A stretch of 64,000 nt of DNA from a virus (IMGVR_UViG_3300035698_025354); one strand, 5' to 3'; counted from the stretch's first letter, positions 22,133 to 48,455 are shown. The notes: generated from the sequence alone by a model not told the origin. Numbers and translations are program-made.

Positions 22133-22714
22133 ATGCCAGGATTTAATATTCAAATTAGTGGTGACTGTCACGATGAAAATGCGTGGCAAGTCAATTCAGC
22201 ATTTCAAGGTCCAGCTTATAATATTGAGACCGCCAGGTCACATAGATATGCATTAGAAATATTGCAACCATTATCTAACAGTAATGGCAATCTATTGTTA
22301 TTCCTAGCAAAGTGTTCTAGGCCATCTGCTGAAATAGATGAAATAAAAGTACATAATGGTCAAGATGAAATATTCAGACCAGGCAAACAACACTGGAGAC
22401 CAATAGAATTCACATTTTATGAGGTGTTAAAAAACACTGGCGATACATCAGAAGATATGGCCGCTAAACTTATTCATGAATGGTGGTCTGAAAATTGTGT
22501 TGATATTCGTAATTCTAGAATATTACCACCGGATCAATTCACTTCTGATGCACAATTAGATATGTTAGATGGTGCTGGTAATTCGGTTTGGACTTATGAT
22601 ATTTATAGATCATGGCCATCGAAAATATCACCATCAGATCTTGATTATTCTAGTAGTGAAATAGCCAGAATATCTGTTACCTTAAAGTATGATAAAGCTA
22701 TTGAAAGGAAATAA
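22133..22714 (+). CDS. tail tube-family protein (paralog 2)
   Basis: 193 aa. MPGFNIQ N-terminus. Shares segments with paralogs 1 and 3. Confidence 0.5.
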   Translation: MPGFNIQISGDCHDENAWQVNSAFQGPAYNIETARSHRYALEILQPLSNSNGNLLLFLAKCSRPSAEIDEIKVHNGQDEIFRPGKQHWRPIEFTFYEVLKNTGDTSEDMAAKLIHEWWSENCVDIRNSRILPPDQFTSDAQLDMLDGAGNSVWTYDIYRSWPSKISPSDLDYSSSEIARISVTLKYDKAIERK

Positions 22715-23725: not shown

Positions 23726-24796
23726 ATGACAATTGAAGATGATCAAAACGAGTCGCAAGACGAAGAATTAGATTTAGATGGTTCTGTTGAAAATAATAAA
23801 CCAGAAAAATTAGCTGAGGGTTCTGAGGGTTCTGAGGGTTCTGAGGGTTCTAAGGATTTTGTTGGTAAGCTTGAATCACATCATCATGATCTTTCTGATC
23901 TGATTAAACCTGGTGCTACGGCTGAAGAAATTATCAATATTATTGATAGTGTTCCACACGATACTTTGATCCCGTGGGAAGAATGCCATTTACCATCTAT
24001 GGGTTATTATTACGGTTGGCCAGATGGTATTATCAAAGTAAGAGCTATGGGTCAGCAGGCGGAAAAAATTCTTACAACACAACGCCTTGCAAAAACTGGT
24101 CAATCTATTGATCATCTTTTTCAAGAATGTTGCCAATTCCCAGATGGATTTTCTTCCAGCGATCTTTTAGTTGGTGATAGAACATTTTTACTTTATTTCT
24201 TGCGTGGTGTTACCCATGGAAATATGTATGAATTTGCTGTTACTTGTCCAAATGAGGAATGTGAGACAACAAACACTCATGTTTATGATTTGAATGATCT
24301 GCAATCATCCATTACGCCAGCACGAGCAGATATTGGTAATGAGCCATTCAAAGTCACACTACCATTTCTATCTGAGTTGTTTAAGAAGGATATTTGGGTT
24401 GAAGTAAAATTCCTACGAGCATATGATACAAATGATATAGTTGCTCGTAGGAGAATTAGAGATAAAACATTTAAGAAGCGTGGTGGTATTAAGTCTAAGA
24501 CGAAATCTGTTGACCCACGTGAGCAAGTTTCTCAAAATGTTATTTATAGTGATGCTCTTGACAATAACATGGATAAAATGATTGTCAGCTTTTTAGGTGA
24601 TCCAGACCGTTTGAAAATAAGGAGTTTAATTTCTAAGCTGCATTCTAGAGATACGTCTGCTATTAGGGAGTGGATGCGTGAAAACACCCCCGGTATTGAT
24701 ACCTCTATCGAGATTGTTTGTCCAGATTGTGGGCATGAGTTTAAAATGGAGCTTCCGATTACGGAAGACTTTTTTCGCTCGACAAAGCGGAGATGA
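23726..24796 (+). CDS. hypothetical protein with (EGS)4 repeat and C-terminal zinc ribbons
   Basis: 356 aa. Acidic N-terminus. EGSEGSEGSEGS from (GAGGGTTCT)4 at 23816-23851. CPNEEC and CPDCGHEF Cys pairs. Confidence 0.5.
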   Translation: MTIEDDQNESQDEELDLDGSVENNKPEKLAEGSEGSEGSEGSKDFVGKLESHHHDLSDLIKPGATAEEIINIIDSVPHDTLIPWEECHLPSMGYYYGWPDGIIKVRAMGQQAEKILTTQRLAKTGQSIDHLFQECCQFPDGFSSSDLLVGDRTFLLYFLRGVTHGNMYEFAVTCPNEECETTNTHVYDLNDLQSSITPARADIGNEPFKVTLPFLSELFKKDIWVEVKFLRAYDTNDIVARRRIRDKTFKKRGGIKSKTKSVDPREQVSQNVIYSDALDNNMDKMIVSFLGDPDRLKIRSLISKLHSRDTSAIREWMRENTPGIDTSIEIVCPDCGHEFKMELPITEDFFRSTKRR

Positions 24797-26727: not shown

Positions 26728-27180
26728 ATGAACAAAACAGATTGTTGTATATCTTCAAACAGAATAAAATTTAAACCAAGCCATCTGTCGAGAATAAAAG
26801 AATTGACGGAGGTTTTTGAAAATGACGACTTTGAATTAGTTAAATTATTCTTCAATCTATCACCTGAAATGTTTTGTGTATTGTCAAGAGATTTCAGATT
26901 TATCAAAACAAATAAATCATGGCAATCGATTCTGGGGTGGTCAACACAAGATCTTACAGATAAATCAGTTCTTGATTTTATCCATAAGGACGATATTGAA
27001 TGTATTAAGAATGCGTTTAATTCATATGATGTTGACCCAGTTACAGTCATTTTGCGTTGTAAAATTAAAAAAGATGGATATAAAAATTTAGAATGGAACA
27101 TATTATTTTGGAAAGATGAAAGATTTTATGCTGTTGTGAGAGAAGCATCTTCAAAATGCGTGAAATGTGCGTCTAAATAA
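26728..27180 (+). CDS. PAS-domain protein
   Basis: LSPEMFCVLSRDFRFIKTNKSWQSILGWSTQDLTDKSVLDFIHKDDIE followed by beta-strand-like segments matches a PAS fold. About 150 aa, single domain. Confidence 0.55.
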   Translation: MNKTDCCISSNRIKFKPSHLSRIKELTEVFENDDFELVKLFFNLSPEMFCVLSRDFRFIKTNKSWQSILGWSTQDLTDKSVLDFIHKDDIECIKNAFNSYDVDPVTVILRCKIKKDGYKNLEWNILFWKDERFYAVVREASSKCVKCASK

Positions 27181-27619: not shown

Positions 27620-28720
27620 ATGATCCAAATTAAGAAAAATTTTAAAAATATTCCCCCCCAAGCTATAGAAAGATGGGTGGATAAAAATTTTGACTATAAA
27701 AAGAGAAAAGGTAAAAATGGAGAAGAACTATTAATAGAAAATCCATTTTATCATAATGATAATAAAAAGTTTAATATCTCTCTGAGTAGAGCTGCATGCC
27801 ATGATTGGAGAGGAGATGAATGGGCCGGACCAATAAATCCGGAAACAGGGAAAAGAAATTGCTCATTTATAAAATTTGTCAGATTATATAATAAATGCTC
27901 GTATAAAGAGGCATTGGAAGATATCCTTGGTGACAAGGAAGACATTAGAGACTTTCTGAAACCAGAAGGCCGAATGACGGATAAGGAAGCCCAGAAAAAG
28001 GTATCTGTTGCTCTTCCTAATGGTGCAAGATTATTATCGAACGCTAATGACACACAAGCAAATGCTCTTAAAAAATGGCTAAATACTAGGGGATATTCGG
28101 AAGAAGATATTTCGAAAAATGAATTGTACTATCTTGGAATGGAAGTCTATTGGCCATACTATGAATTCGACACATTAATATACTGGCAAAGCAGATCACG
28201 TGTTAACAAAAGATTTAACTTTCCATCATTAGAAGTGTATGATAAAGATGGAAAAGTGGTTGGAATTACAGACGGGACAAAAGGAGATTTTTTATATGGA
28301 TTCGATGACATAGAAGCAGCCTCATATGTTATTATAACTGAAGCAATATTTGATAAGCATATCTTGGGAGAACAAACACTGGCGTCCGGTGGAGCAGTGG
28401 TCACAGATAATCAAATAAAAAAACTAAAAATACTTGGACCTAAGAAAGGAGTGATATTGTCTCCAGATAATGATAAAGCCGGGATTAATAGTATAATTAG
28501 CAATGTTAATCTTTTGTCAAGACACGGTCTAAAAATATACTTTTCAATACCACCAAGAATTAAATATATAAAAAAGGGTGAAAAATTGATGACTAAAGAT
28601 TGGAATGAATTTTTCACTGAGTTAAATATGTCAACAGATGAAATTAGAAAAATTCACGATAAAAATATAAAATCAGCTAACACAATGGAACTGGTGAAAT
28701 TGCGGAAGATTTTGAAATAA
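27620..28720 (+). CDS. DnaG-type DNA primase (TOPRIM domain)
   Basis: TOPRIM signature: conserved Glu in VIITEAIFD and DxD in ILSPDNDKAG. A Cys/His-rich N-terminal region is a possible zinc-binding domain. Confidence 0.5.
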   Translation: MIQIKKNFKNIPPQAIERWVDKNFDYKKRKGKNGEELLIENPFYHNDNKKFNISLSRAACHDWRGDEWAGPINPETGKRNCSFIKFVRLYNKCSYKEALEDILGDKEDIRDFLKPEGRMTDKEAQKKVSVALPNGARLLSNANDTQANALKKWLNTRGYSEEDISKNELYYLGMEVYWPYYEFDTLIYWQSRSRVNKRFNFPSLEVYDKDGKVVGITDGTKGDFLYGFDDIEAASYVIITEAIFDKHILGEQTLASGGAVVTDNQIKKLKILGPKKGVILSPDNDKAGINSIISNVNLLSRHGLKIYFSIPPRIKYIKKGEKLMTKDWNEFFTELNMSTDEIRKIHDKNIKSANTMELVKLRKILK

Positions 28721-29323
28721 TTATGAAAGAATCAGCCCAACAGCTTTTTCTAATTTTAAGACAAGTGGATAAATTGGGTCATCTTTTTCGATTTTTTTAA
28801 TCGTATTTGCCGTGGTTATGAAGGACCCGCTATAGTTTGATCTAAAACATCCGTCTGAGCAGAAAATTAAATTAAAAAAAGTATGGTCGTCACCGATTTC
28901 ATCCTTATATGATTTTTTGGTTTCAATCCTTAATCGTAAACCTGGATAACATTCTGGATGTTGTAGACGATTTTCGTCGATTTTTTTATATGATTTATTA
29001 TTTAAGTCAATTTCTACCCATTGCGGATCTTGGCATTTGTTTTGTGTTCCGATAATGGCTGCGATTGTCGCTAATTTTTGCAGAGTATGATCTGTTATCG
29101 GTTTATAATCATATTGATTGACGTATCCTTTTTCTTGCTTTTTATAAGTGGCACTAGAAATCCACGATTCAGCTTGGTAGTCTGTTGGGAATGGTTTGGT
29201 TTTTGATTGTCCTTTTGTTCCTATTCTCCCCCATTTTGTTGTGACGATTTTAGTGCTTTTGTTGTATTCTGCGATCCAAAATTTATTATGGATATCGTCT
29301 TGATGAATTAGTATTGTTTTCAT
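28721..29323 (-). CDS. WGR-domain protein
   Basis: FWIAEYNKSTKIVTTKWGRIGTKGQSKTK matches the WGR (Trp-Gly-Arg) domain signature. 200 aa. Abuts the primase stop convergently with zero spacing. Confidence 0.5.
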   Translation of the reverse strand: MKTILIHQDDIHNKFWIAEYNKSTKIVTTKWGRIGTKGQSKTKPFPTDYQAESWISSATYKKQEKGYVNQYDYKPITDHTLQKLATIAAIIGTQNKCQDPQWVEIDLNNKSYKKIDENRLQHPECYPGLRLRIETKKSYKDEIGDDHTFFNLIFCSDGCFRSNYSGSFITTANTIKKIEKDDPIYPLVLKLEKAVGLILS

Positions 29324-29583
29324 TATTCTCTCAATGAATGGATTTTGCCAATGGTCGCTATTTTTAGATTATTGGTGGTTGCCCATTTTTTTATTTTATT
29401 TAGTCTTTTTATTGATAATTTTTCGGTGTCCCCTAACTCAATCATACCTGTTATTGAGTTAGGGGTACTGCCGCCGCCAAATAAACAATCATTTAGTTCG
29501 ATAGCTTCGTCGATGAATCTGTATATCATATTTTCATTAGTGTCAAATTCAAGACTGATTTCAACTCCGAAGATATCTTTCAT
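29323..29583 (-). CDS. hypothetical small protein
   Basis: 86 aa, translationally coupled (ATGA overlap) to the WGR gene, same strand. Confidence 0.4.
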   Translation of the reverse strand: MKDIFGVEISLEFDTNENMIYRFIDEAIELNDCLFGGGSTPNSITGMIELGDTEKLSIKRLNKIKKWATTNNLKIATIGKIHSLRE

Positions 29584-29585
29584 TT

Positions 29586-30782
29586 TTACTTGCTTTCGTT
29601 CAGTGGGATTGTTGCTCGAACTCCAAAACTTCCGGGTGATTTATCCATGTCTATCCAGAGAGTTCCTTGTCCGGCGAAGATTAATTGTAATTTAACATCA
29701 CTTGGTAGGTTTGTTGCGAAATACCAGTTGTTGTATGCCTTGGCGGTGCCAAATGCTTCCACTGCTAATCTGAATCTGTCAGATTTGGCCTCTTCGATAA
29801 GAAGTTTTCCGTCATTTTCAGCTTTTCCAAGTATTTCAACCGCTTGTGCCTTTAATTCTTCTGTTTCTTTTTTAATTGACGCAATTTGTCTTTGGGTGTC
29901 GGCTCGAATTCCTTCTGCTTTACGATTTCCACCCGCATGTTTTGATGCGACTAATCTTAATGTTTCTACTTCAACCGTTTTTGTTGCTAAAGTGACATTT
30001 TCTTCTGCCTCTCTTAATTTTCCTTCCTCTTTGGCCGTGATTTGTTGTTGTTGTCTTGTTAAGGTGTTTTCATCTGCAATAAAGCTTTGTTGAATTGGCT
30101 CACGAACTTCTTTTGGAACGTAGACATGTCTAACAAGGCCGTATAACACGGTAATTTGTTTATTATCTAATACTGAATGAAATTCTGAAACGATTGATCC
30201 TTGAAAAATTTCTCGTTCATTCCCAACTAGCAATTCGACTGCTTTATATTCAGATCCATTATTTCTGCAGATCGATTCAATTTGCGGGATAACAATTTTT
30301 TCTTCTACCATATCAACATTACCGATGGTCCGAACAGCATGGGCCGCTTGATCTGGCATTAAACCCCAGATTGCCGTAAAGTCAATGTGCATTTTAAACC
30401 CATCACTTGATGGGAATTCAATACCACTACTTGCGTCGGCAATTATTGGCTCACCTGATATTTCATCGGCGACGGTTTTACCATCTTTATCGTGTTTTAC
30501 TTCTGTTTGAACTGTAGAATGCGTGTATCCAATTTCTACAATATCAATGTTTTGTTCACGACCATTGATTGGATAAATTCCAGGTGGTAAAACGTTGTTT
30601 TGGACTCCCTTTATCATTTTAGTGGTCGGGTCGTCTGATAAATTTGTAACAACTCCGACATATCCTGTTGGGATATTAACCCATCCAGCGACTTTCTTTT
30701 GATTACCACTTTCAAATTCTTGGAGTTGCACAATTTCCACTGTATATCCGTATGGATTGACTCGATACCGACCGGGATGCAA
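29586..30782 (-). CDS. SPFH/band-7 (prohibitin/flotillin-like) protein with long C-terminal coiled coil; N-terminus truncated by a foreign segment
   Basis: SPFH-like core then a Q/E/K/A-rich coiled coil. Homology to its upstream paralog continues in-frame to ~30899 with no start codon, ending at a stop at the GC-rich junction. The track start at 30782 is a TTG. Confidence 0.55.
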   Translation of the reverse strand: MHPGRYRVNPYGYTVEIVQLQEFESGNQKKVAGWVNIPTGYVGVVTNLSDDPTTKMIKGVQNNVLPPGIYPINGREQNIDIVEIGYTHSTVQTEVKHDKDGKTVADEISGEPIIADASSGIEFPSSDGFKMHIDFTAIWGLMPDQAAHAVRTIGNVDMVEEKIVIPQIESICRNNGSEYKAVELLVGNEREIFQGSIVSEFHSVLDNKQITVLYGLVRHVYVPKEVREPIQQSFIADENTLTRQQQQITAKEEGKLREAEENVTLATKTVEVETLRLVASKHAGGNRKAEGIRADTQRQIASIKKETEELKAQAVEILGKAENDGKLLIEEAKSDRFRLAVEAFGTAKAYNNWYFATNLPSDVKLQLIFAGQGTLWIDMDKSPGSFGVRATIPLNESK

Positions 30783-30910
30783 AACTTTTCTTAAAATCCC
30801 TTTGAATTTTGTGTCTCCAACATCACCATCAACTAAGTATTGTCCAGATGGGAGATCATTGCCAAGTTTGCATGTTACAATTCCAACTGATCCTGGCTGT
30901 TACCCGGACG

Positions 30911-31348
30911 TTAAGTTGTCGCGGTCCCTGACGGGGCCATGTCGAGCAGATCGTTATAGGCATCCCAGCTGTCCAGGCTGGTCGGCAGGTAACGTCCGGT
31001 GTCAGCCTTCAGAACTTCCAGATTACCGTGAAACGCCAACATAAAAGCTTCGATACCGTGCCTTCCGTAATGTTCTGGGGTTCCATTAGCAGCGTCCCAA
31101 AACTGCCTAAGACTGCCCTGCATTAAAACCGATCCGCGTGGGTCACATGGAATTCTGGATCCGGGGCACTTGTACGGCATCCATTCGTCTGCATAGAGCG
31201 ACCACCATGGACTGTGAACCGCATAAACACATTCCTGATTCGGATTCTGCAGCCGCTTTACGATGTCGGTCTGTGTCGATCGGCCTGTCAGCCGAAAGCG
31301 TTTGCCCTCTTTCGTAGCAATGTAAATCATGACTGTTCCTTTCATCAA
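30911..31348 (-). CDS. hypothetical protein encoded within the foreign GC-rich segment (145 aa)
   Basis: Complete ORF (MMKGTVMIYIATKEGKRFRL...) with E. coli-like codon usage. Family not recognised. Confidence 0.5.
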   Translation of the reverse strand: MMKGTVMIYIATKEGKRFRLTGRSTQTDIVKRLQNPNQECVYAVHSPWWSLYADEWMPYKCPGSRIPCDPRGSVLMQGSLRQFWDAANGTPEHYGRHGIEAFMLAFHGNLEVLKADTGRYLPTSLDSWDAYNDLLDMAPSGTATT

Positions 31349-31388
31349 AGAGATTCAATTTGTTGACAGGGTAATTGCTATTACCCCG

Positions 31389-31565
31389 TCAGTTTTCCGA
31401 CACGTCGCCTACCACTTGACTGGTAAAATCTTCCGGATCTTCGGCCAGCGGTTCGCCTTCATCCGGTTCATTCCAGGCGTCACGTTCAATCAGTTTTCCT
31501 TTCCAGGCTTCCCGGATTTCGGGGGCACAATGGGCGACCGCATCGGCCCACGTCGGCCATCGGCT
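31389..31565 (-). pseudogene. 3' fragment (~57 codons) of a foreign gene truncated at the junction
   Basis: Frame reads ...WPTWADAVAHCAPEIREAWKGKLIERDAWNEPDEGEPLAEDPEDFTSQVVGDVSEN-stop. There is no start. It runs into the AT-rich boundary. Confidence 0.4.
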
Positions 31566-32509
31566 TCACGTGCCGAAGAATTAGCACCTTGAATCCTACA
31601 AAATGCACGAGCATTTGGCATGATTACTTTTTTGATAATTTCTTCGGCAATTCTACTAGCCCCTGGTGTATCATTTGTTATATCATTATATGTAACATAT
31701 GTATTAGCGGCTTCGTCGGGTTTTACTCGAAATTCAATGATTGCGTCTAAACTGATTGGAAATCCATCTTTTGATGGAAATAACATGTTTCCACCTTGTG
31801 CTAAATTAAATCGCTGTGACCGAGTGTCGATTGTGTTGATGCGAAATTGGTATGGATTAAGATAATATGTTCCCTCATCTAGAGTTTTCTTTTGAGGTCC
31901 ACGTTTTCCTTCTTCTACCAATAATTGGTTTGGATCATCTGGTATAGGCCCAGATAAGTTTGTTACAATGCCTTTATAACCAGCTGGGATAATCTTCGGT
32001 TCCCAAAGTTCAATTATTTCAACATAATCTGATTTACCACGTTCAATGCCGATAATATTTTTATTATCTTTATCAATAGTGATTGCATTAATCGCGTATC
32101 GCCCAGGTCTTAGAACTTCCGCGATGATTCCTTTTGTCTTGTCAGATGTTGCCATGAAATCACCGCGTGGTAAATCTTCTCCATGTAGTCGAATTCGCAC
32201 ACCCATTTTATCGTGTGGGATTTCAATCATTGGGTAAACTGCCCATTTCCACGAATAGCAATTGTAAAAATATCTGCCTTCTGGTAGAACATTGAGTTGT
32301 AACCCTTTATGATCTGCGTCTGGGGCGATTTCTTGATTATTTTCTAAGTCAATACCAGTTTTCTTTGTGAGAACTGAAAAATGCTTTGCTGGTACATCGA
32401 TTCTGAATTGTGTATACGCAAAATATGCGAAAATGCAAAAGAGTAATGAAAGTGCGATTCCAAGCCCTCCCCCAATTTTCATTAATGATAATTTTCTTTT
32501 GTGGTCCAT
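31490..32509 (-). CDS. SPFH/band-7 protein paralog with N-terminal transmembrane segment; C-terminus replaced by the foreign segment
   Basis: N-terminal TM (IGGGLGIALSLLFCIFAYFAY). SPFH core aligns with 29586..30782 (GIIAEVLRPGRY vs KGILRKVLHPGRY). Homology stops at ~31575 and the frame then reads through GC-rich DNA to a stop at 31490. Confidence 0.55.
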   Translation of the reverse strand: MDHKRKLSLMKIGGGLGIALSLLFCIFAYFAYTQFRIDVPAKHFSVLTKKTGIDLENNQEIAPDADHKGLQLNVLPEGRYFYNCYSWKWAVYPMIEIPHDKMGVRIRLHGEDLPRGDFMATSDKTKGIIAEVLRPGRYAINAITIDKDNKNIIGIERGKSDYVEIIELWEPKIIPAGYKGIVTNLSGPIPDDPNQLLVEEGKRGPQKKTLDEGTYYLNPYQFRINTIDTRSQRFNLAQGGNMLFPSKDGFPISLDAIIEFRVKPDEAANTYVTYNDITNDTPGASRIAEEIIKKVIMPNARAFCRIQGANSSAREADGRRGPMRSPIVPPKSGKPGKEN

Positions 32510-32537
32510 TTATTTTTCCGATCTTGTTTGAGATATT

Positions 32538-32564
32538 CATTCTACGTAGAAATTATATAGAATG
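32538..32564. promoter_or_regulatory. palindromic operator-like site upstream of the SPFH gene
   Basis: cattcta-N13-tagaatg inverted repeat containing the perfect 12 bp palindrome ttctacgtagaa. Confidence 0.3.
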
Positions 32565-32573
32565 ATTGAAAAG

Positions 32574-32954
32574 TTATGTGATTTTTTTTGATCCGCTGAT
32601 TATTCCACCGAGTAACCATCCCTCGGATGCTGAAGCCAAGAAATCTACCATGGACATGCCCTTATCTCTTTTTTTAACAGCTTTTTCATGCATAATTCTA
32701 ATATTAGAAGTATATTGCAATAATTTGCGTCCTCTCATTCCGCTTTCCTTAGCTTTTGAAATAGCATCAATAGTGATTTCTTTGTCGTCTTCGTTTAGAC
32801 TTTTGATCCAAGCAATTAATTCTTGTTCAGTCCATTGTTTTTTATTTAGCCCATTATGCTCCTCGATTAATTTGTCAAACATTGTTTTCTCCAAAGAGGT
32901 TATTATTTCGTAATAGTGTTTATTTCCCATAGCGTGCCAGCCATTTTGTTGCAA
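32574..32954 (-). CDS. hypothetical protein, first gene of the minus-strand cassette
   Basis: 126 aa (a start at internal Met is possible). Divergent from the tape measure gene across a 67 bp intergenic region. Confidence 0.4.
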   Translation of the reverse strand: MQQNGWHAMGNKHYYEIITSLEKTMFDKLIEEHNGLNKKQWTEQELIAWIKSLNEDDKEITIDAISKAKESGMRGRKLLQYTSNIRIMHEKAVKKRDKGMSMVDFLASASEGWLLGGIISGSKKIT

Positions 32955-33021
32955 AATAATACCATTTCGTTAAATACATAATAAAATTGAAAAATAAATT
33001 TTATATGGGAATAAAATTTTT

Positions 33022-36000
33022 ATGTCAGTAGATCCAAACATTTACGCACTTAATATGGAATTATCTCTAAGCACTGTAAGTGCGTATAATGAATTAGATA
33101 AATTTGAAAAATCTGTTGTAGATTTGGAAGAAAGTGTATCTTCAGCTGCTCAAAACGCTATAAATGAAATCAGCCGAACAATTGATAATGCCGCTAAAGG
33201 GCTTGATTCAATAGCAGATTCAATCAAAGGAATAAATTCAGAGAGCGATATACTTTCGTCAACTATGTCTGGGATAGGTATAAATACATCAGACTTTGGG
33301 GACAATGTCAGCGATCAAATGGATGATATAAAAAAGTCTATTGATTATTGGCAACAAATACACGATCTTAATGAAGAAATTGTTGACTTTGGGGAACAGG
33401 AATTAGACAGAGTTAACAGTTATATAAAAGTAATCCAACAAATTACAAAAGCAGTTGATACAAAAAATAAATCACATGAAGAAGAATTAGGTTTAGTAGA
33501 ATCTGAATTTCCAGCTCTTCAGGACATATATGATTCATATCTAAATATAGGTTCTGCAGTAGACGACAGTGCTAAGAAAAATAGGAATCTATTTAATATT
33601 ATAAAACAGGTCGTGGATGTATTCGCACGTGCAGACAAAGCTACAGACAATTTCACACAAGCTAATTATAGATTGTATGGGTCTCAGCAGGAAATTATCC
33701 AAAATGTTAGAATATTAAGTGGTGAGCTTGGGGTCACAGAAAGCACGACGATTGCGGCATATAAAGCCCTAGCAGATATTAAGTATCCAAGAGAAGAAAT
33801 AGGGAAATTAGCGGGTGAAATAGGAAGACTGAATTTAATAACTGGATCTTCTGTGGACACTATGGTTTTGTTTACACATGAGATGAGACAATCCGGTTTT
33901 GATGCGGCAGAGACATCGCGTCAATTGAACATAATGGCAGCAGCTCAGCGGTCTTTGGGCTTATCGACATTTGACCTCAATAAAGTCATGCAGGGCTCTG
34001 CATTAACGATATCACAACAGCTATCGATGTTTGGTAAAGATGCACCAGCAGCATTTCAAATGATGGATATGGGATTGCGTGCTATTAGTAAACAAGTTGG
34101 TATGTCTGAGGCAGATATTGTGTCTTGGAACAAATCACTGCAAGCTACAGGTGTTGAAAGTGTGATGATTTGGCAGAGATTGGCTGGGCTGACAGCAGCA
34201 GAAGCGTCAAAGATTGAAAATAGATATGGGGCGATGGGAACAGCAGCTCAAAATTTCGCCAGACAAGCTGGTATGTCTTTAGAATCTTTAGCTGACCCAT
34301 CTGGGATTTCTCAATCACAACAGATAAAATTACAAGCATTAGCTGATGCTTATGAGGTAACTGTAGAGCAAATGTCTTCAATGGCGAGAGCGTCATTAAA
34401 TTTAACAGATGCTCAAAAAGAACAACTTATGACCACTGATGGTCTAAATAAAGTGTTCGAAGAAACTCTCAAACGCCAAAAAATGTGGTCGGAGACACAA
34501 GCTACATTAACAAGACAACTGCAAAAATTGAAAAATAGTCTATCTGTGGTGCTTAATGTGATTTTGCAGCTTGGAGCAGATGCACTTATCCCACTACTTA
34601 AAGTTTTAAATGTTGTTTTAAGTTCTGTCGCCGGATTCATTAATCTGATAAGATCCGCTATAGGTTGGCTTGAAGAATGGATACCTGGATTTGGTTATGT
34701 TGTAAGTGCTGCTAAATTTATGATAGGGTGGGTCCTCATAGCTGGTGCCGCATTTACAGTGTTTTATAAAGTTGGGGCTATACTTGGCGGGTTCTTTAAT
34801 TTTGTAACAACTGGAATGAACGGAATTGCTGGTGTATTCACATCTGGATTTAATATAATCAAAAGTATAACCAGCGGTATAATGCAAGTCCTTAATACGA
34901 TTGTTAAGGGATTGGCTACATCAATTCGTATAATTGGAAAAGCAGCATCAACAGTAATGCTACCATTATTAGCACTTGGTGCAGCTATGCTTATGACTGG
35001 TACTGCAGCATATATGTTGGCACAATCAGTCAAAATAATCGCAGAAGTTGGTTGGGATGCCGTACCAGCGATAATTGGGCTTATAGCTGCTGTGTCTATA
35101 CTTGGTGGTGTGCTAATATTTCTTGGAAGTTTGGCCCAGGGACCAGTTGCATTGGGTATGTTAGCAGTTGGTGCTACTTTAATGATGGTTGGAGCTGCTG
35201 CTTGGCTTGTTGGAGCCGGTGTTGACATGATGGCTAATGCTTTTTTAAAATTAGCACAAGCTGTTGGTATGCTTTCTACTGATGTGTTACCAAATTTTGC
35301 GTCTTCATTATTAAGGGCGTCATATGATATGTTTGAGGCTTCTGTTCTATTGTTACCAGCCGTATTAGCGTTGTTACCTGGAGCTATAATGCTTGGTATT
35401 GTTGGTGGCATCCTTGGATTGTCTCTTTCGATATTTTCTTACGCTATTGGTGCTTTGGGAGATGCTGGTGTCAGATTTGAAGAAGGAATAAAAGGTATTC
35501 TTAATGGGTCTGATCTTATAAACTCAATAAACTGGGGTAAATTTTTAAGTAGTGCTATAGCATTGGCTAAAATTGGTGCTGCGTTATTAGCAGCGTCTGT
35601 TTTATTCACACCTGCTGCGTATATTATCGGGTCAGCTGGATTAATACTCGGTAGTGGGTTAAAATCGATGGCTAAGGGGGCGGAATTAGCTAGTTCAATT
35701 GATTTTGTTGAGTTAGCTAATAATTTAATGGCTGGTGGGCTAGTATTATTATCAGCTGCTCCGATAATAGCTTATGCGTCAGCTGCGATAATGCCAGGTG
35801 GGTTGCTTTTACTGGCCGCTGGTGCTTCATTATTGGTTGGAGCGTCTGCATTGTATGCTGCATCATACTTAATTAATTCATCTGCTGAATACTTAGAGCC
35901 AGCTGCCGCTAAAATAAAAGCAGCTGTTGATATGTTAAAATCATCGTCTGATGACATGCGTGCTTCTGTTGATGATTTGATTGTTTTTGGATCAAGAATG

Positions 36001-38185: not shown

Positions 38186-38380
38186 TTCTGTTCTACATTC
38201 CGCACATTGTGATAATATCAGACTGCACTTATCACAAAGTTTTGGTGGGCTACCAACTGCAGCATCAACTTTGTTTCCACAATTCTCGCAATTTCCCTGT
38301 GAGCATCTTGCTCCACCAATTATACCACGACATTTGTAACAAACTTTTCTACGTTTTCCATATCCTTTTAATTTTTTCAT
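38177..38380 (-). CDS. small Cys-rich zinc-ribbon protein
   Basis: 67 aa with 12 cysteines in CxxC pairs (CYKCRG...CSQGNCENCGN...CDKC...CAEC). Confidence 0.4.
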   Translation of the reverse strand: MKKLKGYGKRRKVCYKCRGIIGGARCSQGNCENCGNKVDAAVGSPPKLCDKCSLILSQCAECRTELC

Positions 38381-39681
38381 ATTATGCTACCTCCGACTTT
38401 TTCGGCTGATGAATTATGATCATATCTTGACAAGTATAAATCTGTGAGCCATCTACCATTTTGGACTTTGTGTTGAAAACCATAGATTATCCAATTTCCG
38501 GATAAAAACCATAACTTTTTCCCACTGCTTGCTGCTGACATCCATTTTATAAATACTGTGTCGGTTCCTAAACCCTTACAGCTTGACCATTCTCCGTGTC
38601 CTACAACTGTTAATTTCATCCTCATAAGACCATTTGTGAGACCTAAAAATATCCCTCTTGGTCTACCATCAATATATTGGTTATACTTTAGTCCAAGATC
38701 TCCTGCCGAATAAATTTCTGGTATTGCAGAAATAGAAGTCCATCCTACTTTTGGTGGGTCAGACCCTGGCGAATCATCTGGCTTAGAAAATGATTGATCT
38801 GGTTTTGTTTGAGCTATTTTCTTATGTGATGTCGTGGTGTCTTTTGCGAATACCATTGTCTCTTCTGGGTCTGTTGTCCTGTCCAAATATTGCCCTGAAA
38901 CTGCAGATAATCCTTGTGTTATGATTTTAGTTTCCGCTATTGATAAAGCGTTATTTGCTAGAAATTCCCATTTGCTAATTGTGTCGTGTGCTTCACCATC
39001 CCAGAATCTGTAATATGCTCTTGGGATTGATCTTATATCTGCTTGCTCTTTTATTTCTAATTTTTTACCATCTACAATCACTATCCAATTTGTTTTATTA
39101 ATAGTTATTGATGATGACCAATCTAATAATGACCCTATAAATGTTTTAGGGTCCATTCTCATCATTTGCCACTTGTTGTGCTTTGAATCGAGGGTAGAAC
39201 TTACTTCTACTTCAATGTCCGGTGCGTATTCGTTTACGACTTGTTTTATAACTCCTTGGACATTTCCGGTGTATATCTTGCCAGATCCGTCTCCTGTGTT
39301 AAGATGCCAAGATGGTATATCTATTCCTATAAATTCGAGATATGCATTATCCGATGACTCTCCATATGCTTTTAAGCTTGTAACGTATGTTGATTGATAA
39401 TCTGTTGCCTTTTCAGGCACTGGTTGTGATCCAGCCCCCCATTTTATTTTGAATTTCATTAGGAGGGTTTTACTTCTTGACTCTTGTAAATAACCCGAAT
39501 CTATTAGGATTCTTTGTAAATTAAAATGGGGGTCGAAAAGTTTTACTTTTACAATATATCCGCCATTTAACATTCCCTTGAATTCTAATTTACTAAATTT
39601 AATTCCCCAATCTTTTCCATTAACATCTGGGAAATATAATTCAATTTGTGGTCTTGCTTCAGCTTTAGGAATACTTGGCAT
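38377..39681 (-). CDS. hypothetical protein (possible baseplate hub/gpD-like or moron), reverse-oriented inside the baseplate module
   Basis: 434 aa, translationally coupled to the zinc-ribbon gene. No confident motif. Confidence 0.4.
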   Translation of the reverse strand: MPSIPKAEARPQIELYFPDVNGKDWGIKFSKLEFKGMLNGGYIVKVKLFDPHFNLQRILIDSGYLQESRSKTLLMKFKIKWGAGSQPVPEKATDYQSTYVTSLKAYGESSDNAYLEFIGIDIPSWHLNTGDGSGKIYTGNVQGVIKQVVNEYAPDIEVEVSSTLDSKHNKWQMMRMDPKTFIGSLLDWSSSITINKTNWIVIVDGKKLEIKEQADIRSIPRAYYRFWDGEAHDTISKWEFLANNALSIAETKIITQGLSAVSGQYLDRTTDPEETMVFAKDTTTSHKKIAQTKPDQSFSKPDDSPGSDPPKVGWTSISAIPEIYSAGDLGLKYNQYIDGRPRGIFLGLTNGLMRMKLTVVGHGEWSSCKGLGTDTVFIKWMSAASSGKKLWFLSGNWIIYGFQHKVQNGRWLTDLYLSRYDHNSSAEKVGGSII

Positions 39682-39979: not shown

Positions 39980-42163
39980 ATGTCAGATAATGTATCAGTA
40001 ATTTGGAATAAGTTCTTTAATGAGAGAACTAAAAGTATTTGGGAAAAATTCTCAGGTAAACTAAGGGCTCTTGTAGTTGAAACAAATGACCCATTAAATA
40101 TGGGTAGAGTAAAATTCAAATGCCCGGAATTACATGACTTTGATGTTGATGTAAAAGATTGCCCATGGGCTGTTCCGGATTTTGACTTAGGTGGTAAAAG
40201 AGCAGCAAGATTCTCATGCCCTGTTGTAGGAGATTGGGTGTGGATAACATTTGAAAAAAACCATGCATATAGCCCAGTATGGACCGGGTTTGCCACACCA
40301 ACTAGAAGAAAATATTACGCATATCCTCAGATATCTAATGTTTCACCACTATCTGTTGATGAAGGTGGAAATCCGGCAGATAAACCAATTGATTATGATG
40401 AAAACTATCTTCCATCGGATGGAAGACCAATGTCGCACGGTTGGATAGATAGGTATGGTCATTTAGATATACATTCATCTGTTGGTTATTACCCAGCAGA
40501 ACACAAAGACCCACCACCATCACCTGATTACGATGCGGTTGGTGGCGGTGAATTTGAGCAACAAAAAAGATCTCCGAAAGTAAACAACCCAGATAAAAAG
40601 TATATGGCTAGGGTTACAAAATATGGTAATATATTTTTAATGGGAGATCAAGGATATTATTGGAAAAATGAAGGTGATTATGGTGAATTTTCTGGAAATC
40701 CAGAAGAAGATGAAAAATTTGAAACTAAAAGATGGCTTTATGTTCAGAAGTTGTTGAATGATAATATCCCAGACTCTTCTCAGCCAGGCGGCGATCAACG
40801 TAAAATGCTGATCATGAGCAGGTATGGTACTAGGTTTGAAATACGTGATGTTGGATGGGCTCAAGAAGGTCCCGTAAAGTCAATGTCTCGTAGTAATGAA
40901 TTTGGGCCACCGAGAATTTTGTCTAAAGAAACTAAGCAAGATTTTAGATGGGTAAAAATAAGAACTAAGGGTGGGATGTTATTTCAAGCTTATGATAAAG
41001 GAGCACATCCAAATGATGATAAATTTATCAGAAGACCTCTTTTGGAAGAAAGTGGTCCTAGAAGTGAACAAGAAAATAAGCATTGGGGCGGCGATAAAGA
41101 TGCTAGATGGATTAGACTAGTCACACGACATGGTATTAAATTTGTTTTGGATGATAGAGGATCTGATGATAAAAATGCTGATAAAAGGGAATCACCACGA
41201 GGAGTTGGTGTTTTAATTAAAGGTCGAAGAACCCCCAGTGTTAAAAAGAAAGGGTTAAAAGGTAATCCAAGAGGATTTCTTTGGGAATTTAATGAAAATG
41301 ATGATGCTAATCATACTACATGGGCATCTCCTCGTGGTCAATCTATCGAGATGAATGATAGATATCAATATACTATGATGGTATCGTCAATGGGCAAGGG
41401 ATGGGTTAGAAAATACAGAGGATTGAAACAAAATGAATTTATAAGAAAACCACTTATGCTTAGAAGTCCTGAATTTAGGACACATCATTTAAAACTTGAT
41501 CATGATAATGAATATGTAAGATTTAAGACACGGGGTGGCAAAGGAACCAAACCGAGAGGTGGGGTGAATCCAAGTGGTGTTGGTAAGAGAGAAATCCAAC
41601 AGGGTCTTGAGGCTAGAGATGGTCGAAAAGGAGATGGCCCATGGGTTGAGATTAATGATTGTCAACGTCGCGGTATGTGGTTTAGTAAAAAGCAACAACT
41701 TGGGGTATGGAGGTCTAAAAAAGGCAGGAGAATGTATCAATGGTTTGATGATCGAGCTAAAAAGATAATCATATTTAATAATGAGGAATTAGGTGTAATT
41801 GAGATTTATGCCAATCAAAAGGTTAATGTTATTTCTAATAATGATATAAATCTTAGAGCCGATGGTAATGTGAATATTAAAGCTGGTCGGGCGATTAGAA
41901 TGCAAGCTGGTGGGTCTAAGCTTACAATAAGGGATTCTATTAGAACAAATGCTGATTACTTTGGTCCAAAGGTAACTGGGTTTATTACGGGGACATTTCC
42001 TGGTCCGGGAGCTGGATCTCCAGCTCCCGGTGGTGATACAGTGGAAAGAATAGTTAGACCAATTCAACCTGAGCAATTGGAACCCAAAGATAGAGGTAGG
42101 ACTTACAATGGTCCTTTTGAAGAGTGTCCAAGAGATGAAGTGGAGCATAGGACTGAAGAATGA
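39980..42163 (+). CDS. baseplate central spike protein (gp5/gpV-like, OB-fold N-domain + C-terminal beta-helix)
   Basis: N-terminus LRALVVETNDPLNMGRVKFKCPEL...WAVPDFDLGG...FSCPVVGDWVWITFEKNHAYSPVWTG matches the phage_base_V/gp5 OB-fold signature. C-terminal GVIEIYANQKVNVISNNDINLRADGNVNIKAG is beta-helix-like. Confidence 0.7.
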   Translation: MSDNVSVIWNKFFNERTKSIWEKFSGKLRALVVETNDPLNMGRVKFKCPELHDFDVDVKDCPWAVPDFDLGGKRAARFSCPVVGDWVWITFEKNHAYSPVWTGFATPTRRKYYAYPQISNVSPLSVDEGGNPADKPIDYDENYLPSDGRPMSHGWIDRYGHLDIHSSVGYYPAEHKDPPPSPDYDAVGGGEFEQQKRSPKVNNPDKKYMARVTKYGNIFLMGDQGYYWKNEGDYGEFSGNPEEDEKFETKRWLYVQKLLNDNIPDSSQPGGDQRKMLIMSRYGTRFEIRDVGWAQEGPVKSMSRSNEFGPPRILSKETKQDFRWVKIRTKGGMLFQAYDKGAHPNDDKFIRRPLLEESGPRSEQENKHWGGDKDARWIRLVTRHGIKFVLDDRGSDDKNADKRESPRGVGVLIKGRRTPSVKKKGLKGNPRGFLWEFNENDDANHTTWASPRGQSIEMNDRYQYTMMVSSMGKGWVRKYRGLKQNEFIRKPLMLRSPEFRTHHLKLDHDNEYVRFKTRGGKGTKPRGGVNPSGVGKREIQQGLEARDGRKGDGPWVEINDCQRRGMWFSKKQQLGVWRSKKGRRMYQWFDDRAKKIIIFNNEELGVIEIYANQKVNVISNNDINLRADGNVNIKAGRAIRMQAGGSKLTIRDSIRTNADYFGPKVTGFITGTFPGPGAGSPAPGGDTVERIVRPIQPEQLEPKDRGRTYNGPFEECPRDEVEHRTEE

Positions 42164-45563: not shown

Positions 45564-46253
45564 ATGAAAACTTTAGATATCACAGATGATAATATCATGA
45601 CAGTTTGGAACTGGTGTCTTTCTGCTTATTTACATCACGGCAGAAAACTTAGATTCCCAAAAGGTACAGATCCGCAAAAAACATATCAGTGGAGGTATGC
45701 GAAATCATTAACTAAAAAGTTTATTGAGTGGGAATTTAGTGATGAAACAGCACAAAAATTTATTTCGATTGCTGTTGATCATGCTGATTCTCAAAACAAA
45801 CTAAATAAAGGACTTGCTGCACTCCATCAGGATAATTTATTAAAAATTTGTTATGACACTCTTATGAATGATAAAAAGAAATGCAAGCAGTCTTTTTCAT
45901 CATTAGAGCAAATCAAAATATGGTTTGATAATGAAATAGGTAATAAAGATCCTGTTAAAATGTTGTTGAAACGCAAAGATCCTGATATGTTTTGTAATTT
46001 AACTTTGTGGTATCAATCGTTTCAATTGTCTCCTTTATTTTTATCTCTGTCACGAGCCTGCGGGCAAGCATCAGTAAGTTTAAGCAAAGTTGATGAATGT
46101 GAAAGATCAATTCTACCAGATCCATCAAAGCTATACTTAATTCGTACTAAATTTCTTAATGACCAAACCAATATTAAACTAGCAAACAAATTACTGGGAG
46201 AAGATAGTGTCTGCAACAAGACTACAAGAAACAATAAATACCGCACCAGATGA
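45564..46253 (+). CDS. hypothetical protein
   Basis: ATG at 45564 preferred. The track start at 45459 adds a Phe-rich stretch overlapping the divergent gene. Confidence 0.4.
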   Translation: MKTLDITDDNIMTVWNWCLSAYLHHGRKLRFPKGTDPQKTYQWRYAKSLTKKFIEWEFSDETAQKFISIAVDHADSQNKLNKGLAALHQDNLLKICYDTLMNDKKKCKQSFSSLEQIKIWFDNEIGNKDPVKMLLKRKDPDMFCNLTLWYQSFQLSPLFLSLSRACGQASVSLSKVDECERSILPDPSKLYLIRTKFLNDQTNIKLANKLLGEDSVCNKTTRNNKYRTR

Positions 46254-48396: not shown

Positions 48397-48403
48397 GTAA
48401 ATA

Positions 48404-48441
48404 AGGGCCAAGAGTATTTTTATTCTTGGCCCTATTTTTAT
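48404..48441 (+). terminator. rho-independent terminator after the RNR gene
   Basis: 10 bp stem agggccaaga / tcttggccct, AT loop, then ATTTTTA. Confidence 0.6.
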
Positions 48442-48455
48442 AGATTGATTTAAAC

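What the first reader, a model, noticed from the sequence alone, without database searches (positions are those of the whole stretch)
28721..32954. Minus-strand five-gene cassette: WGR-domain protein + small protein + two tandem SPFH/band-7 paralogs + small protein, embedded between tail tube and tape measure genes
The genome here is otherwise almost entirely + strand. A co-oriented, translationally coupled block on the other strand is unusual inside a tail-morphogenesis region. It encodes a TM-anchored SPFH protein, a second SPFH protein with a long coiled coil, and a WGR (PARP-type DNA-binding) protein. The block has its own divergent promoter region and a palindromic operator-like site. SPFH scaffolds plus a DNA-binding WGR protein suggest a membrane-associated accessory system rather than virion parts. 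I do not know of a described phage module with this composition.
Basis: partly seen in the sequence, partly recalled or inferred. Interest (0 to 1): 0.7.

Follow-up and report, generated by a model that had tools for sequence, protein, structure and literature searches.

The report
Broken SPFH gene pair in phage island
The supposed five-gene "SPFH + WGR system" is a patchwork of unrelated accessory genes in a variable slot of a T4-like phage, and its two SPFH genes are the cut-off halves of a gene pair typical of Planctomycetota, whose middle was replaced by 666 bases of foreign phage DNA.

Summary
The minus-strand block is real and the Pfam calls hold: WGR E 1.4e-13; Band_7 E 1.8e-18 and 2.3e-12. 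It is not a coherent five-gene system.

1. The two SPFH ORFs are remnants of a tandem pair. SPFH-A and SPFH-B are each 530-560 aa. A lies directly upstream of B in 73 of 73 testable Planctomycetota genomes and in all 8 viral-type loci that carry B.
2. In the window, A stops being native after codon 315. B begins at about codon 97, with no start codon and no membrane helix.
3. The roughly 1 kb between them is replaced by a 666-bp insert (30899-31564). Its GC is 53%, against 36% for the phage.
4. The insert looks recent: its GC3 is 0.57, while the SPFH remnants (0.26-0.28) match the phage. Remnant B shows no decay.
5. Related phages keep the WGR gene, and weakly the small gene next to the tape measure, in the same slot between primase and tape measure. 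Their other genes there differ, and none has SPFH.
6. No locus with an intact SPFH pair has WGR, the 86-aa gene or the 126-aa gene nearby.
7. The 86-aa protein is a divergent YggL-like protein.

Verdict: an ordinary mosaic accessory island holding a probably inactivated gene pair of the Planctomycetota type.

The parts
28721..29323 (-). WGR200: a 200-aa protein with an N-terminal WGR domain (residues about 1-75) and a conserved C-terminal domain of unknown fold. It is the conserved occupant of the primase/tape-measure slot in this phage group.
29323..29583 (-). s86: an 86-aa divergent YggL-like (DUF469) protein. It is tightly packed between SPFH-B and WGR200 and has no counterpart in related phages or in SPFH loci.
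   Evidence: Pfam YggL_50S_bp E 4.9e-4, 21.4 bits, below the gathering score of 27. Its nearest relatives among 1.8 billion representatives (E 2.8e-8 to 5e-4) are bona fide YggL proteins with Pfam E 1e-14 to 1e-19. No tblastn hit in L007-L023 or L074-L153.
29586..30898 (-). SPFH-B remnant, corresponding to about codons 97-535 of a family of about 535 aa. The frame is open from 30899 but has no native start. The N-terminal membrane helix is missing. The first in-frame start candidates are TTG at 30782 and GTG at 30740.
   Evidence: 65-78% identical to 525-567-aa SPFH proteins, at 95-100% query coverage. Nucleotide homology to L007 SPFH-B begins exactly at 30898. There is no hydrophobic segment, whereas intact L007-B has one at residues 3-29. 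Band_7 positions 2-175 of 176 are matched. All 94 family-invariant columns are kept.
30899..31564 (-). Foreign 666-bp insert (GC 0.533). It replaces about 1 kb: SPFH-A codons 316 to the end, the spacer, and SPFH-B codons 1 to about 96.
   Evidence: blastn boundaries against L007 and L006. GC and GC3. The gap is 927-1247 bp in 73 Planctomycetota genomes. No Rfam family. No terminal repeats or target-site duplication. RNA fold z -1.5.
31389..31564 (-). Within the insert: the last 57 codons plus stop of a small phage gene (about 107 aa, RWPTWADAVAHC motif). Its 5' end is cut off at the junction.
   Evidence: Translation. 49 IMG/VR loci carry homologues, with median GC 0.545. The full-length example is L024 3881-4204.
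31364..31391 (-). Within the insert: a 12-bp-stem hairpin in the spacer between the gene fragment and o139, its outer arm overlapping the fragment's stop codon.
   Evidence: the repeat finder I3, 92% complementary.
30911..31330 (-). o139: a complete 139-aa ORF of unknown function inside the insert. An AAAGGAA ribosome-binding site lies upstream of the ATG at 31330.
   Evidence: 87% aa and 84% nt identity to L006 (IMGVR_UViG_3300031957_002612, GC 55%, with integrase and CsrA). dN/dS 0.10 against L006. The family has 18 members, all in metagenomes. No Pfam, PHROG, NCBIfam or PADLOC hit.
31565..32509 (-). SPFH-A remnant: native codons 1-315 of a family of about 531 aa, comprising the membrane helix, the beta-rich region and the first two thirds of the SPFH domain. 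The ORF then runs 24 out-of-frame foreign codons to a stop at 31490-31492.
   Evidence: 78.7% identical to L007 SPFH-A over residues 2-315. Homology ends at 31565. Band_7 positions 2-112 of 176 only. Hydrophobic helix at residues about 7-35.
32574..32954 (-). s126: a small protein of unknown function, transcribed divergently from the tape-measure-like gene. It is more likely 102 aa, starting at the ATG at 32882.
   Evidence: Gene call of 102 aa. GGAG ribosome-binding site seen in the sequence. Weak homologues in the same position in L022 (41% over 58 aa, E 5e-10) and L023 (E 7e-9). No family hit.
32981..33027 (.). AT-rich triple half-site repeat (ATAAAATT N8 AATTTTAT N6 ATAAAATT) immediately upstream of, and overlapping, the start of the 1409-aa gene.
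   Evidence: It exceeds mononucleotide shuffles (12 of 2000 reach it). It is not conserved in L022 or L023, and there is no promoter-consensus support.

Best explanation
The block is a mosaic accessory island in a recombination-prone slot of a T4-like myovirus, between the primase-like gene and the tape-measure-like gene. It is not one functional system.

Two genes belong to the phage lineage: the WGR-plus-C-terminal-domain protein and the small gene next to the tape-measure gene. The rest is cargo.

The main cargo was a tandem SPFH-A/SPFH-B gene pair of the kind found throughout Planctomycetota. Each protein in an intact pair has a membrane helix, a beta-rich region, an SPFH domain and a long helix.

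By analogy with HflK/HflC, QmcA, flotillins and prohibitins, an intact pair would assemble through the C-terminal helices into a membrane-anchored cage or ring. That cage would organise or protect the host membrane during infection. This step is inferred, not shown.

In this phage the pair had been resident long enough to take on the phage's base composition. A later illegitimate recombination event then swapped about 1 kb, spanning the end of A and the start of B, for 666 bp from a GC-rich phage.

The result is as follows:
- A' keeps the anchor but lacks the last third of the SPFH domain and the oligomerising helix.
- B' keeps the SPFH domain and helix but lacks its start codon and anchor.
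- The 139-aa newcomer is the only intact gene in the middle.

The SPFH function is therefore most likely lost (inferred). The YggL-like and WGR genes downstream are independent accessory genes. Their products probably bind ribosome or nucleic acid (inferred from family only).
For: Conserved pair:
- B is 65-78% identical to 525-567-aa SPFH proteins.
- A lies directly upstream of B in L007-L010 and L015-L019.
- It does so in 73 of 73 Planctomycetota genomes with enough flank. The distance from A(315) to B(97) there is 927-1247 bp.
- The A and B identity matrices are parallel.

Breakpoints:
- Homology to L007-A ends at 31565.
- Homology to L007-B starts at 30898.
- Homology to L006 ends at 30899. 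L007-A continues '...SSARE-FIGGETR', whereas the window reads '...SSARE-ADGRRG'.

Foreign origin and timing:
- Insert GC is 0.533 and o139 GC3 is 0.568, against 0.557 for the L006 homologue.
- Remnant GC3 is 0.26-0.275, against 0.24-0.26 for the phage's own genes.
- The 5' piece is a truncated small phage gene.
- o139 has dN/dS 0.10.

No decay in B: all 94 invariant columns are kept, and there are only 2 private deviations.

Lost parts: no hydrophobic helix in B', and Band_7 positions 2-112 of 176 only in A'.

Not a module:
- No WGR200, s86 or s126 homologue lies within 3-8 kb of any intact pair.
- WGR200 lies in the same slot with different neighbours in L020-L023.
- L015, a relative of this phage, has the intact pair between the RNR and helicase genes, which are adjacent in the window.

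Real sequence: assemblies from two different pipelines are identical across both junctions.
Against: - Both remnants are still open reading frames with no internal stops, and B' shows no excess of substitutions at conserved sites. Continued use of the fragments cannot be excluded.
- B', s86 and WGR200 are tightly packed, which would fit co-expression.
- The exact donor arrangement (gene fragment next to o139) was not found in any contig.
- No close relative (above 80% identity) with an intact pair in this slot was found, so the 'before' state is inferred from more distant genomes.
- It is not known whether the two supporting assemblies come from independent samples.
- The cage-forming role of the intact pair is by analogy only. 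The AF2 model of the intact B protein was poor (pLDDT 49.8).
Confidence: 0.8

Rival explanations
1. The split arrangement is functional. A' (anchor plus partial SPFH) and B' (soluble SPFH plus oligomerising helix, translated from the internal TTG or GTG) act on the host's own SPFH-A/B complex, with or without o139. For example, they could be dominant-negative subunits that poison or re-target the host membrane cage.
For: Both fragments stay open. B' keeps every family-invariant residue. B' is about 67-70% identical to planctomycetal host proteins, so co-assembly is conceivable. B' is tightly packed with the downstream genes.
Against: The unameliorated GC of the insert shows the event is recent, which alone explains the lack of decay. 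B' has no native start codon. The insert carries a truncated bystander gene, which points to an accident rather than a design. The arrangement is seen in only one phage.
Confidence: 0.1
2. It is a dedicated membrane-associated SPFH + WGR accessory or anti-defence system, with the six genes working together.
For: The genes are co-oriented and the three distal genes are tightly spaced. The domain calls are correct.
Against: SPFH and WGR are never linked elsewhere: 0 of 80 bacterial loci and 0 of 8 viral-type loci with the pair have WGR200, s86 or s126 nearby. Four related phage loci (three distinct phages) have WGR200 without SPFH. There are no PADLOC hits. Both SPFH genes are truncated.
Confidence: 0.04
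3. The GC-rich stretch is a self-splicing intron, an intein or another mobile element that interrupts a single gene and is removed to restore function.
For: It is a GC-rich island inside an AT-rich coding region with an internal ORF, which superficially resembles an intron carrying a homing gene.
Against: No Rfam intron at the gathering threshold or at E up to 10. The RNA fold is not unusual, z -1.5. About 1 kb of native coding sequence is missing, so no splicing could restore either protein. The A and B frames differ. The insert starts with a truncated gene. There are no terminal repeats.
Confidence: 0.01
4. The junctions are an assembly chimera between this phage and a GC-rich phage from the same sample.
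For: Only two contigs span the junctions. The composition changes abruptly.
Against: Assemblies from two different pipelines (ENA megahit-style k141 and Logan) are 100% identical over 1051 bp spanning both junctions. A chimera would need two precise crossovers that return to the same phage 1 kb downstream in the native gene order.
Confidence: 0.04

Closest known systems
Planctomycetota tandem SPFH-A/SPFH-B pair (for example Gimesia aquarii CP037920, 541 aa + 559 aa; annotated only as 'SPFH domain / Band 7 family protein')
   Same: The window remnants are 69% (A) and 67% (B) identical to the Gimesia pair. They are in the same order, on the same strand, with the same domain order.
   Different: In the window, A lacks residues 316 to the end and B lacks residues 1 to about 96. 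A 666-bp foreign insert replaces the junction. The pair sits in a phage, not a bacterium.
Phage-borne copies of the same pair (L007-L009, on contigs up to 280 kb with T4 gp13-like and LAGLIDADG genes; IMG/VR contigs L015-L019, 48-527 kb)
   Same: These are the closest sequences found, at 78% for both A and B against L007. They show that phages carry this pair as accessory cargo.
   Different: All of these copies are intact (512-564 aa). They sit in other genomic contexts. In L015 the pair lies between the RNR and helicase genes, together with CoaBC-like genes and a PspA/IM30 gene.
HflK/HflC, the SPFH pair of E. coli that forms a cage around FtsH
   Same: Two adjacent paralogous SPFH genes, each with an N-terminal membrane helix, an SPFH domain and a long C-terminal helix. 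This is the working model for what the intact pair does (established knowledge; reviewed in PMC12005517).
   Different: No match to any NCBIfam model, HflK/HflC included, at E up to 0.01. No PDB sequence hit for single proteins. A profile hit only the helical part of QmcA (8z5g, E 0.0025). The proteins here are about 535 aa with an extra beta-rich region. No link to FtsH was tested.
SPFH/Band 7 ORFs of T4-like phages (44RR ORF098c, Aeh1 ORF064c, RB43 ORF139c; PHROG 200)
   Same: These are SPFH accessory genes in the hyperplastic regions of T4-like phages, known since 2006 (PMC1524935). Both remnants hit PHROG 200.
   Different: They are single genes of a different SPFH subfamily, only 22-27% identical (Vibrio phages). 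They are not a planctomycetal-type pair and are not disrupted.
WGR domain of PARP1/2/3 and bacterial stand-alone WGR proteins (2ra8)
YggL (DUF469), a 50S-subunit-associated protein of E. coli (PMC7498339)
   Same: The only detectable relatives of s86 are YggL-family proteins.
   Different: s86 is shorter (86 aa, against 100-115 aa) and lacks the N-terminal 12-16 residues. Its own Pfam score is below the gathering threshold. Ribosome binding was not tested.

Membership tests
SPFH / Band 7 (Pfam PF01145) | Match to the Band_7 profile above the gathering score, covering the whole domain | tested here: met
   B remnant: 67.6 bits (cutoff 23.6), model positions 2-175 of 176. A remnant: 47.8 bits, but positions 2-112 of 176 only, so it belongs to the family but has a truncated domain.
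Planctomycetota-type tandem SPFH-A/B pair | High sequence identity to both paralogues, in A-then-B order on one strand | tested here: met
   78% and 78% to L007; 69% and 67% to Gimesia. The A-then-B order holds in 73 of 73 genomes.
Planctomycetota-type tandem SPFH-A/B pair | Both proteins full length (about 510-560 aa), each with an N-terminal membrane helix and a C-terminal long helix | tested here: not met
   A has 315 native residues and no helix region. B lacks about 96 N-terminal residues, including the membrane helix and the start codon.
HflK/HflC | Match to the curated HflK or HflC equivalog models | tested here: not met
   NCBIfam returned no HflK or HflC hit at E up to 0.01 for the remnants or for the intact L007 A and B.
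HflK/HflC | Association with the FtsH protease | not testable with these tools
   No FtsH gene lies next to the pair in L007, L010 or L015. Physical association needs an experiment.
WGR domain (Pfam PF05406) | Profile match above the gathering score, plus the WGR fold | tested here: met
PARP-type enzyme | ADP-ribosyltransferase catalytic domain | tested here: not met
   Pfam finds only WGR in the 200-aa protein. The C-terminal domain has no PARP-like structural match.
YggL_50S_bp (Pfam PF04320) | Profile match above the gathering score | tested here: inconclusive
   s86 scores 21.4 bits against a cutoff of 27. Its nearest relatives (E down to 2.8e-8) score 55-69 bits.
Known anti-phage defence systems (PADLOC 2.0) | Any component matching a defence-system model | tested here: not met
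   There are only two insignificant hits (E 0.005-0.008), and none for the SPFH proteins.
Self-splicing intron or other mobile element (for the GC-rich insert) | Structured-RNA family match, terminal repeats or target duplication, and restoration of the host gene on removal | tested here: not met
   No Rfam hit. No terminal repeats. Fold z -1.5. About 1 kb of the host genes is missing.
Phage tape measure protein (for the 1409-aa neighbour) | Tape-measure HMM match, or position between the tail chaperones and the baseplate hub | tested here: inconclusive
   No Pfam hit, and only a non-specific PHROG hit. Its size and its position upstream of a VgrG-like spike (39980-42163) fit a tape measure.

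The most novel reading that the evidence does not exclude
The fragments are not dead. A' (membrane anchor plus half an SPFH domain) and B' (anchor-less SPFH plus assembly helix) are expressed and co-assemble with the host planctomycete's own, roughly 67-70% identical SPFH-A/B complex. There they act as poison subunits, giving the phage a way to dismantle or re-target a host membrane scaffold. More broadly, phages of Planctomycetota repeatedly capture this host SPFH pair, once next to a PspA/IM30 gene, as a membrane-maintenance module.
Probability: 0.1. Interest if true: 0.6.

Novelty: new member of a known kind. Interest (0 to 1): 0.27.

Why it matters
Mostly as a correction. A plausible-looking "new phage system" turns out to be a hot-spot island with a broken gene pair, so it should not seed a defence or anti-defence family.

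Two modest points are worth keeping:
- A conserved Planctomycetota SPFH-A/B pair is carried by several large phages at different loci. In one relative it sits next to a PspA/IM30 gene. This suggests that phages borrow host membrane-scaffold genes.
- The window gives a clean, datable example of illegitimate recombination that replaces the middle of a two-gene operon in a T4-like phage. The boundaries are defined to the base, and the insert has not yet taken on the phage's composition.

The small WGR-plus-unknown-domain family fixed next to the primase in this phage group is an uncharacterised, phage-specific use of the WGR fold.

Tried and rejected
- **Intron, intein or single interrupted gene.** This was my first idea on seeing the GC-rich stretch. 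I rejected it: no Rfam hit, the frames differ, about 1 kb of native sequence is missing, and the RNA fold is unremarkable.
- **Transposon-like element.** There are no terminal inverted repeats or target-site duplication at the insert ends.
- **Near-identical DNA elsewhere.** Searches of GenBank phages (whole block) and of E. coli genomes (insert) found nothing. tblastn of o139 against cultured phages found nothing.
- **IMG/VR scans with single sequences.** Scans with B and with WGR200 found nothing. The alignment-based scan worked.
- **AF2 model of intact SPFH-B** (P0002, 18-sequence alignment). It was too poor (pLDDT 49.8) for a fold search and I did not use it.
- **PDB sequence searches with intact A and B.** No hits. 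A profile hit only the helical part of QmcA.
- **Exact-pattern scans of JGI metagenomes next to both junctions.** These were meant to find an intact allele or further junction-spanning contigs. Both gave 0 hits.
- **Promoter consensus scan.** The number of hits equals the chance expectation.
- **A GTTAAATA motif** shared upstream of the tape-measure gene in three phages. It is not enriched in the window: 5 found, 5.9 expected.
- **Donor arrangement.** None of the 49 loci carrying the small-gene family has o139 within 4 kb.
- **Literature.** I found nothing on SPFH in planctomycete phages or on phage WGR proteins.

Full report
**1. What is in the sequence**

ORF listing confirms a run of minus-strand ORFs at 28721-32954 in a window that is otherwise mostly + strand. 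In gene order, reading 5' to 3' on the minus strand, the ORFs are:
- a 126-aa ORF (32574-32954), which the gene callers of two public assemblies start at the ATG at 32882, giving 102 aa;
- a 339-aa ORF (31490-32509);
- a 139/145-aa ORF (30911-31330/31348);
- a 398-aa ORF (29586-30782);
- an 86-aa ORF (29323-29583);
- a 200-aa ORF (28721-29323).

WGR scores E 1.4e-13 in the 200-aa protein. Band_7/SPFH scores E 1.8e-18 in the 398-aa protein and E 2.3e-12 in the 339-aa protein.

The window is a T4-like myovirus. It carries:
- the gp23 major capsid protein (61488-63101);
- the prohead protease (59912-60652);
- the sheath (18487-21357);
- the gp19 tube (22133-22714);
- a T4 baseplate protein (23726-24796);
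- a VgrG-like spike (39980-42163).

The block's immediate neighbours are a Toprim primase-like gene (27620-28720; PHROG 47 'DNA primase', E 3e-23) and a 1409-aa gene. That gene fits a tape measure by size and position only, with no HMM support.

**2. The two SPFH ORFs are truncated halves of a conserved gene pair**

Three oddities prompted a closer look:
- The 339-aa ORF matches only positions 2-112 of the 176-position Band_7 model.
- The 398-aa ORF stays open upstream to a stop at 30900-30902 without any start codon.
- The 1-kb composition bin covering 31001-32000 has GC 0.46, in a genome of GC 0.36.

BLASTP of the two proteins against each other aligns residues 110-315 of the first with residues 13-222 of the extended second (26% identity, E 6e-17). 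So each lacks what the other has.

A database search with the extended second ORF returned 1917 hits. The best 120 are 60-78% identical, and all but three are 522-567 aa long. Coverage of the query was 95-100%, so the homologues carry about 100 extra N-terminal residues. Every named hit is from Planctomycetota: Gimesia, Aeoliella, Posidoniimonas and Pirellulales.

Context look-ups show a tandem pair:
- 531 aa + 535 aa in phage-like contigs L007-L009, which carry T4 gp13-like, LAGLIDADG, NAD synthase and NUDIX genes;
- 541 aa + 559 aa in Gimesia aquarii.

I call the two genes SPFH-A and SPFH-B. A scan of one genome per GTDB species found 190 species with B. The best 80 are all Planctomycetota. 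In 73 of the 73 loci with enough upstream DNA, A lies directly upstream on the same strand. The distance from the end of the A(1-315) match to the start of the B match is 927-1247 bp, median 1065. Five IMG/VR contigs (48-527 kb) also carry the intact pair.

The identity matrices of A and B are parallel: window to L007 78% and 78%, to Gimesia 69% and 67%, to L015 56% and 54%. The two genes have therefore travelled together.

**3. The breakpoints**

blastn of the window against the fetched loci gives base-level boundaries:
- Homology to L007 SPFH-A runs up to window position 31565.
- Homology to L007 SPFH-B starts at 30898.
- The 443 bp from 31341 to 30899 are 84% identical to L006, a 55%-GC viral contig with an integrase, a CsrA gene and a methyltransferase.

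At the protein level, L007-A reads '...CRIQGANSSARE-FIGGETRTAF...'. The window reads '...CRIQGANSSARE-ADGRRGPMRS...' and stops 24 codons later. L007-B reads '...VIKPGSVGMVTCKLG...', and the window reads 'stop-QPGSVGIVTCKLG...'.

So 974 bp of L007 (A codons 316-531, the spacer, and about 96 codons of B) correspond to 666 unrelated bp in the window (30899-31564).

**4. What the insert is**

Its GC is 0.533. It holds three things:
- The last 57 codons and the stop of a small phage gene, in a frame different from A. Homologues with a 'RWPTWADAVAHC' motif occur in 49 IMG/VR loci of median GC 0.545. A full-length example is L024 3881-4204, 107 aa.
- A hairpin with a 12-bp stem (31364-31391).
- A complete 139-aa ORF preceded by AAAGGAA.

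The 139-aa ORF is 87% identical to the L006 gene, with dN/dS 0.10, so it is a real coding gene. Its family has only 18 members. The four member contexts I looked up were small-ORF regions of metagenomic contigs, one of them a viral contig. No family library recognises it.

A truncated bystander gene at one end points to illegitimate recombination rather than a mobile element or intron. So do the absence of terminal repeats, the absence of any Rfam family even at E up to 10 and the unremarkable RNA fold (z -1.5).

The exact donor arrangement was not found.

**5. Timing and state of the remnants**

GC3 values:

| Sequence | GC3 |
|---|---|
| Window SPFH remnants | 0.26 and 0.275 |
| Window's own genes (tape measure, primase) | 0.24 and 0.26 |
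| L007 pair | about 0.44 |
| Gimesia pair | about 0.47-0.48 |
| o139 in the window | 0.568 |
| o139 homologue in L006 | 0.557 |

The pair is therefore an old resident of an AT-rich lineage, and the insert is a recent arrival.

The state of remnant B fits this timing. It keeps all 94 columns that are invariant in 119 family members. It has only 2 private deviations at otherwise invariant columns, which is within the range of intact members. This fits recent inactivation but cannot exclude continued use.

Hydropathy shows a membrane helix only in A'. B' has none, whereas intact L007-B has one at residues 3-29. A' lacks the last third of the SPFH domain and the whole helical region. B' lacks a start codon and the anchor.

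**6. The block is not a module**

tblastn with WGR200, s86 and s126 found no homologue within 3-8 kb of any intact pair: 0 of the 8 viral-type loci, 0 in the Gimesia aquarii locus L010, and 0 of 80 further bacterial loci.

Conversely, the WGR200 family has 14 members of about 200 aa, all aligned full length. Its members lie in the same primase/tape-measure slot of syntenic phages L020-L023. In those phages the primase is 56-64% identical, the 287-aa gene 66-76% and the tape measure 30-42%. The neighbours there differ, and none is an SPFH gene.

s126 has weak homologues in the same position next to the tape measure in L022 and L023. s86 has none.

L015 (IMG/VR, 355 kb, GC 0.36) shares 51-79% identical RNR, helicase and downstream genes with window 46490-52965. 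It carries an intact SPFH pair between the RNR and helicase genes, which are adjacent in the window. CoaBC-like genes and a PspA/IM30 gene sit with it.

The pair is therefore movable cargo, and the primase/tape-measure slot is a variable island.

**7. The other genes**

WGR200:
- The AF2 model has pLDDT 86.5.
- There is no catalytic domain.
- A nucleic-acid-binding role near the primase is a guess from family knowledge only.

s86:
- Its own Pfam score for YggL is below threshold (21.4 bits against 27).
- Its only relatives among 1.8 billion representatives are true YggL proteins.
- YggL associates with the 50S subunit in E. coli (PMC7498339).

No PADLOC model matches anything in the block.

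**8. Regulatory claims**

Sigma-70-like hits equal the chance expectation, and none lies in the 139-bp spacer.

The AT-rich repeat ATAAAATT/AATTTTAT/ATAAAATT (32981-33027) is real and unusual against mononucleotide shuffles, 12 of 2000 of which reach it. It is not conserved in L022 or L023. Its role is open.

**9. Is the sequence real?**

Two assemblies made by different pipelines (ENA ERZ27315896 k141_152613, 71.5 kb; Logan SRR7529098) are 100% identical across both junctions. I cannot tell whether they derive from independent samples. Two exact-pattern scans of JGI metagenomes found no further copies.

**10. Comparison with known systems, and verdict**

Phage SPFH/Band 7 ORFs have been listed in T4-like phages since 2006 (PMC1524935) and form PHROG 200.

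The intact pair resembles HflK/HflC in layout. It fails the curated HflK/HflC models and has only a weak profile match to the helical part of QmcA.

The finding is a new, damaged member of a known kind, namely phage accessory SPFH genes in a hyperplastic region. It is not a new system, and its interest is low to moderate.

The most novel reading still open is that the fragments act as poison subunits of the host SPFH complex. I put that at about 10%.

Noticed in passing
L015 1-17518 (IMGVR_UViG_3300014208_000001) versus window 46490-52965: A 355-kb viral contig of GC 0.36 is syntenic with the window's class II RNR (46207-48396), helicase (48456-50066) and downstream genes, at 51-79% aa identity. 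It has about 9.8 kb inserted between RNR and helicase. The extra stretch holds split CoaBC-like genes (one fused to an M23 peptidase domain), an intact SPFH-A/B pair and a PspA/IM30 gene. This looks like a membrane-related cargo island.
   Followed up: partly
window 38377-39681 (-) versus L020 4299-5648: A 434-aa minus-strand gene with no Pfam hit lies downstream of the tape-measure-like gene in the window. Its homologue (58% identical) sits inside the primase/tape-measure slot, next to the WGR gene, in L020 and L021. This gene also changes place between related phages.
   Followed up: no
window 26728-27180 (+): A 150-aa PAS-domain protein (Pfam PAS E 2e-6) is encoded among the baseplate and primase genes. 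It is conserved, sometimes duplicated, at the same place in L020-L023. A PAS sensor domain is an unusual thing to find in a T4-like tail gene region.
   Followed up: no
window 27620-28720 (+): A primase-like Toprim gene (PHROG 47, E 3e-23) lies between the baseplate-like genes and the tape-measure-like gene. This placement is conserved in L020-L023, so a replication gene is embedded in the tail module of this phage group.
   Followed up: partly
window 32965-32980; L022 and L023 spacers upstream of the tape-measure gene: All three phages share GTTAAAT(A/C) about 45 nt upstream of the start of the tape-measure-like gene. The 8-mer GTTAAATA is not enriched in the window (5 found, 5.9 expected), so it may or may not be a promoter element.
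   Followed up: partly
L024 3881-4204 and 48 other IMG/VR loci (L025-L072): This is a widespread family of small phage proteins (about 107 aa) with a CPIC...H motif followed by RWPTWADAVAHC. It has no Pfam match and often occurs in GC-rich viral contigs; an integrase-like gene lies upstream in L034. Its function is unknown. A 57-codon fragment of one member is fossilised in the window's insert.
   Followed up: partly
window 750-1520 (-): This is another minus-strand accessory gene, a family 2 glycosyltransferase (Pfam E 6.7e-12). It shows that minus-strand islands of accessory genes recur in this genome.
   Followed up: no
window 61001-63000: A second GC-rich stretch (0.44-0.49, with negative GC skew) is simply the gp23-type major capsid gene (Pfam Gp23 E 3e-79). 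It is not foreign DNA.
   Followed up: yes
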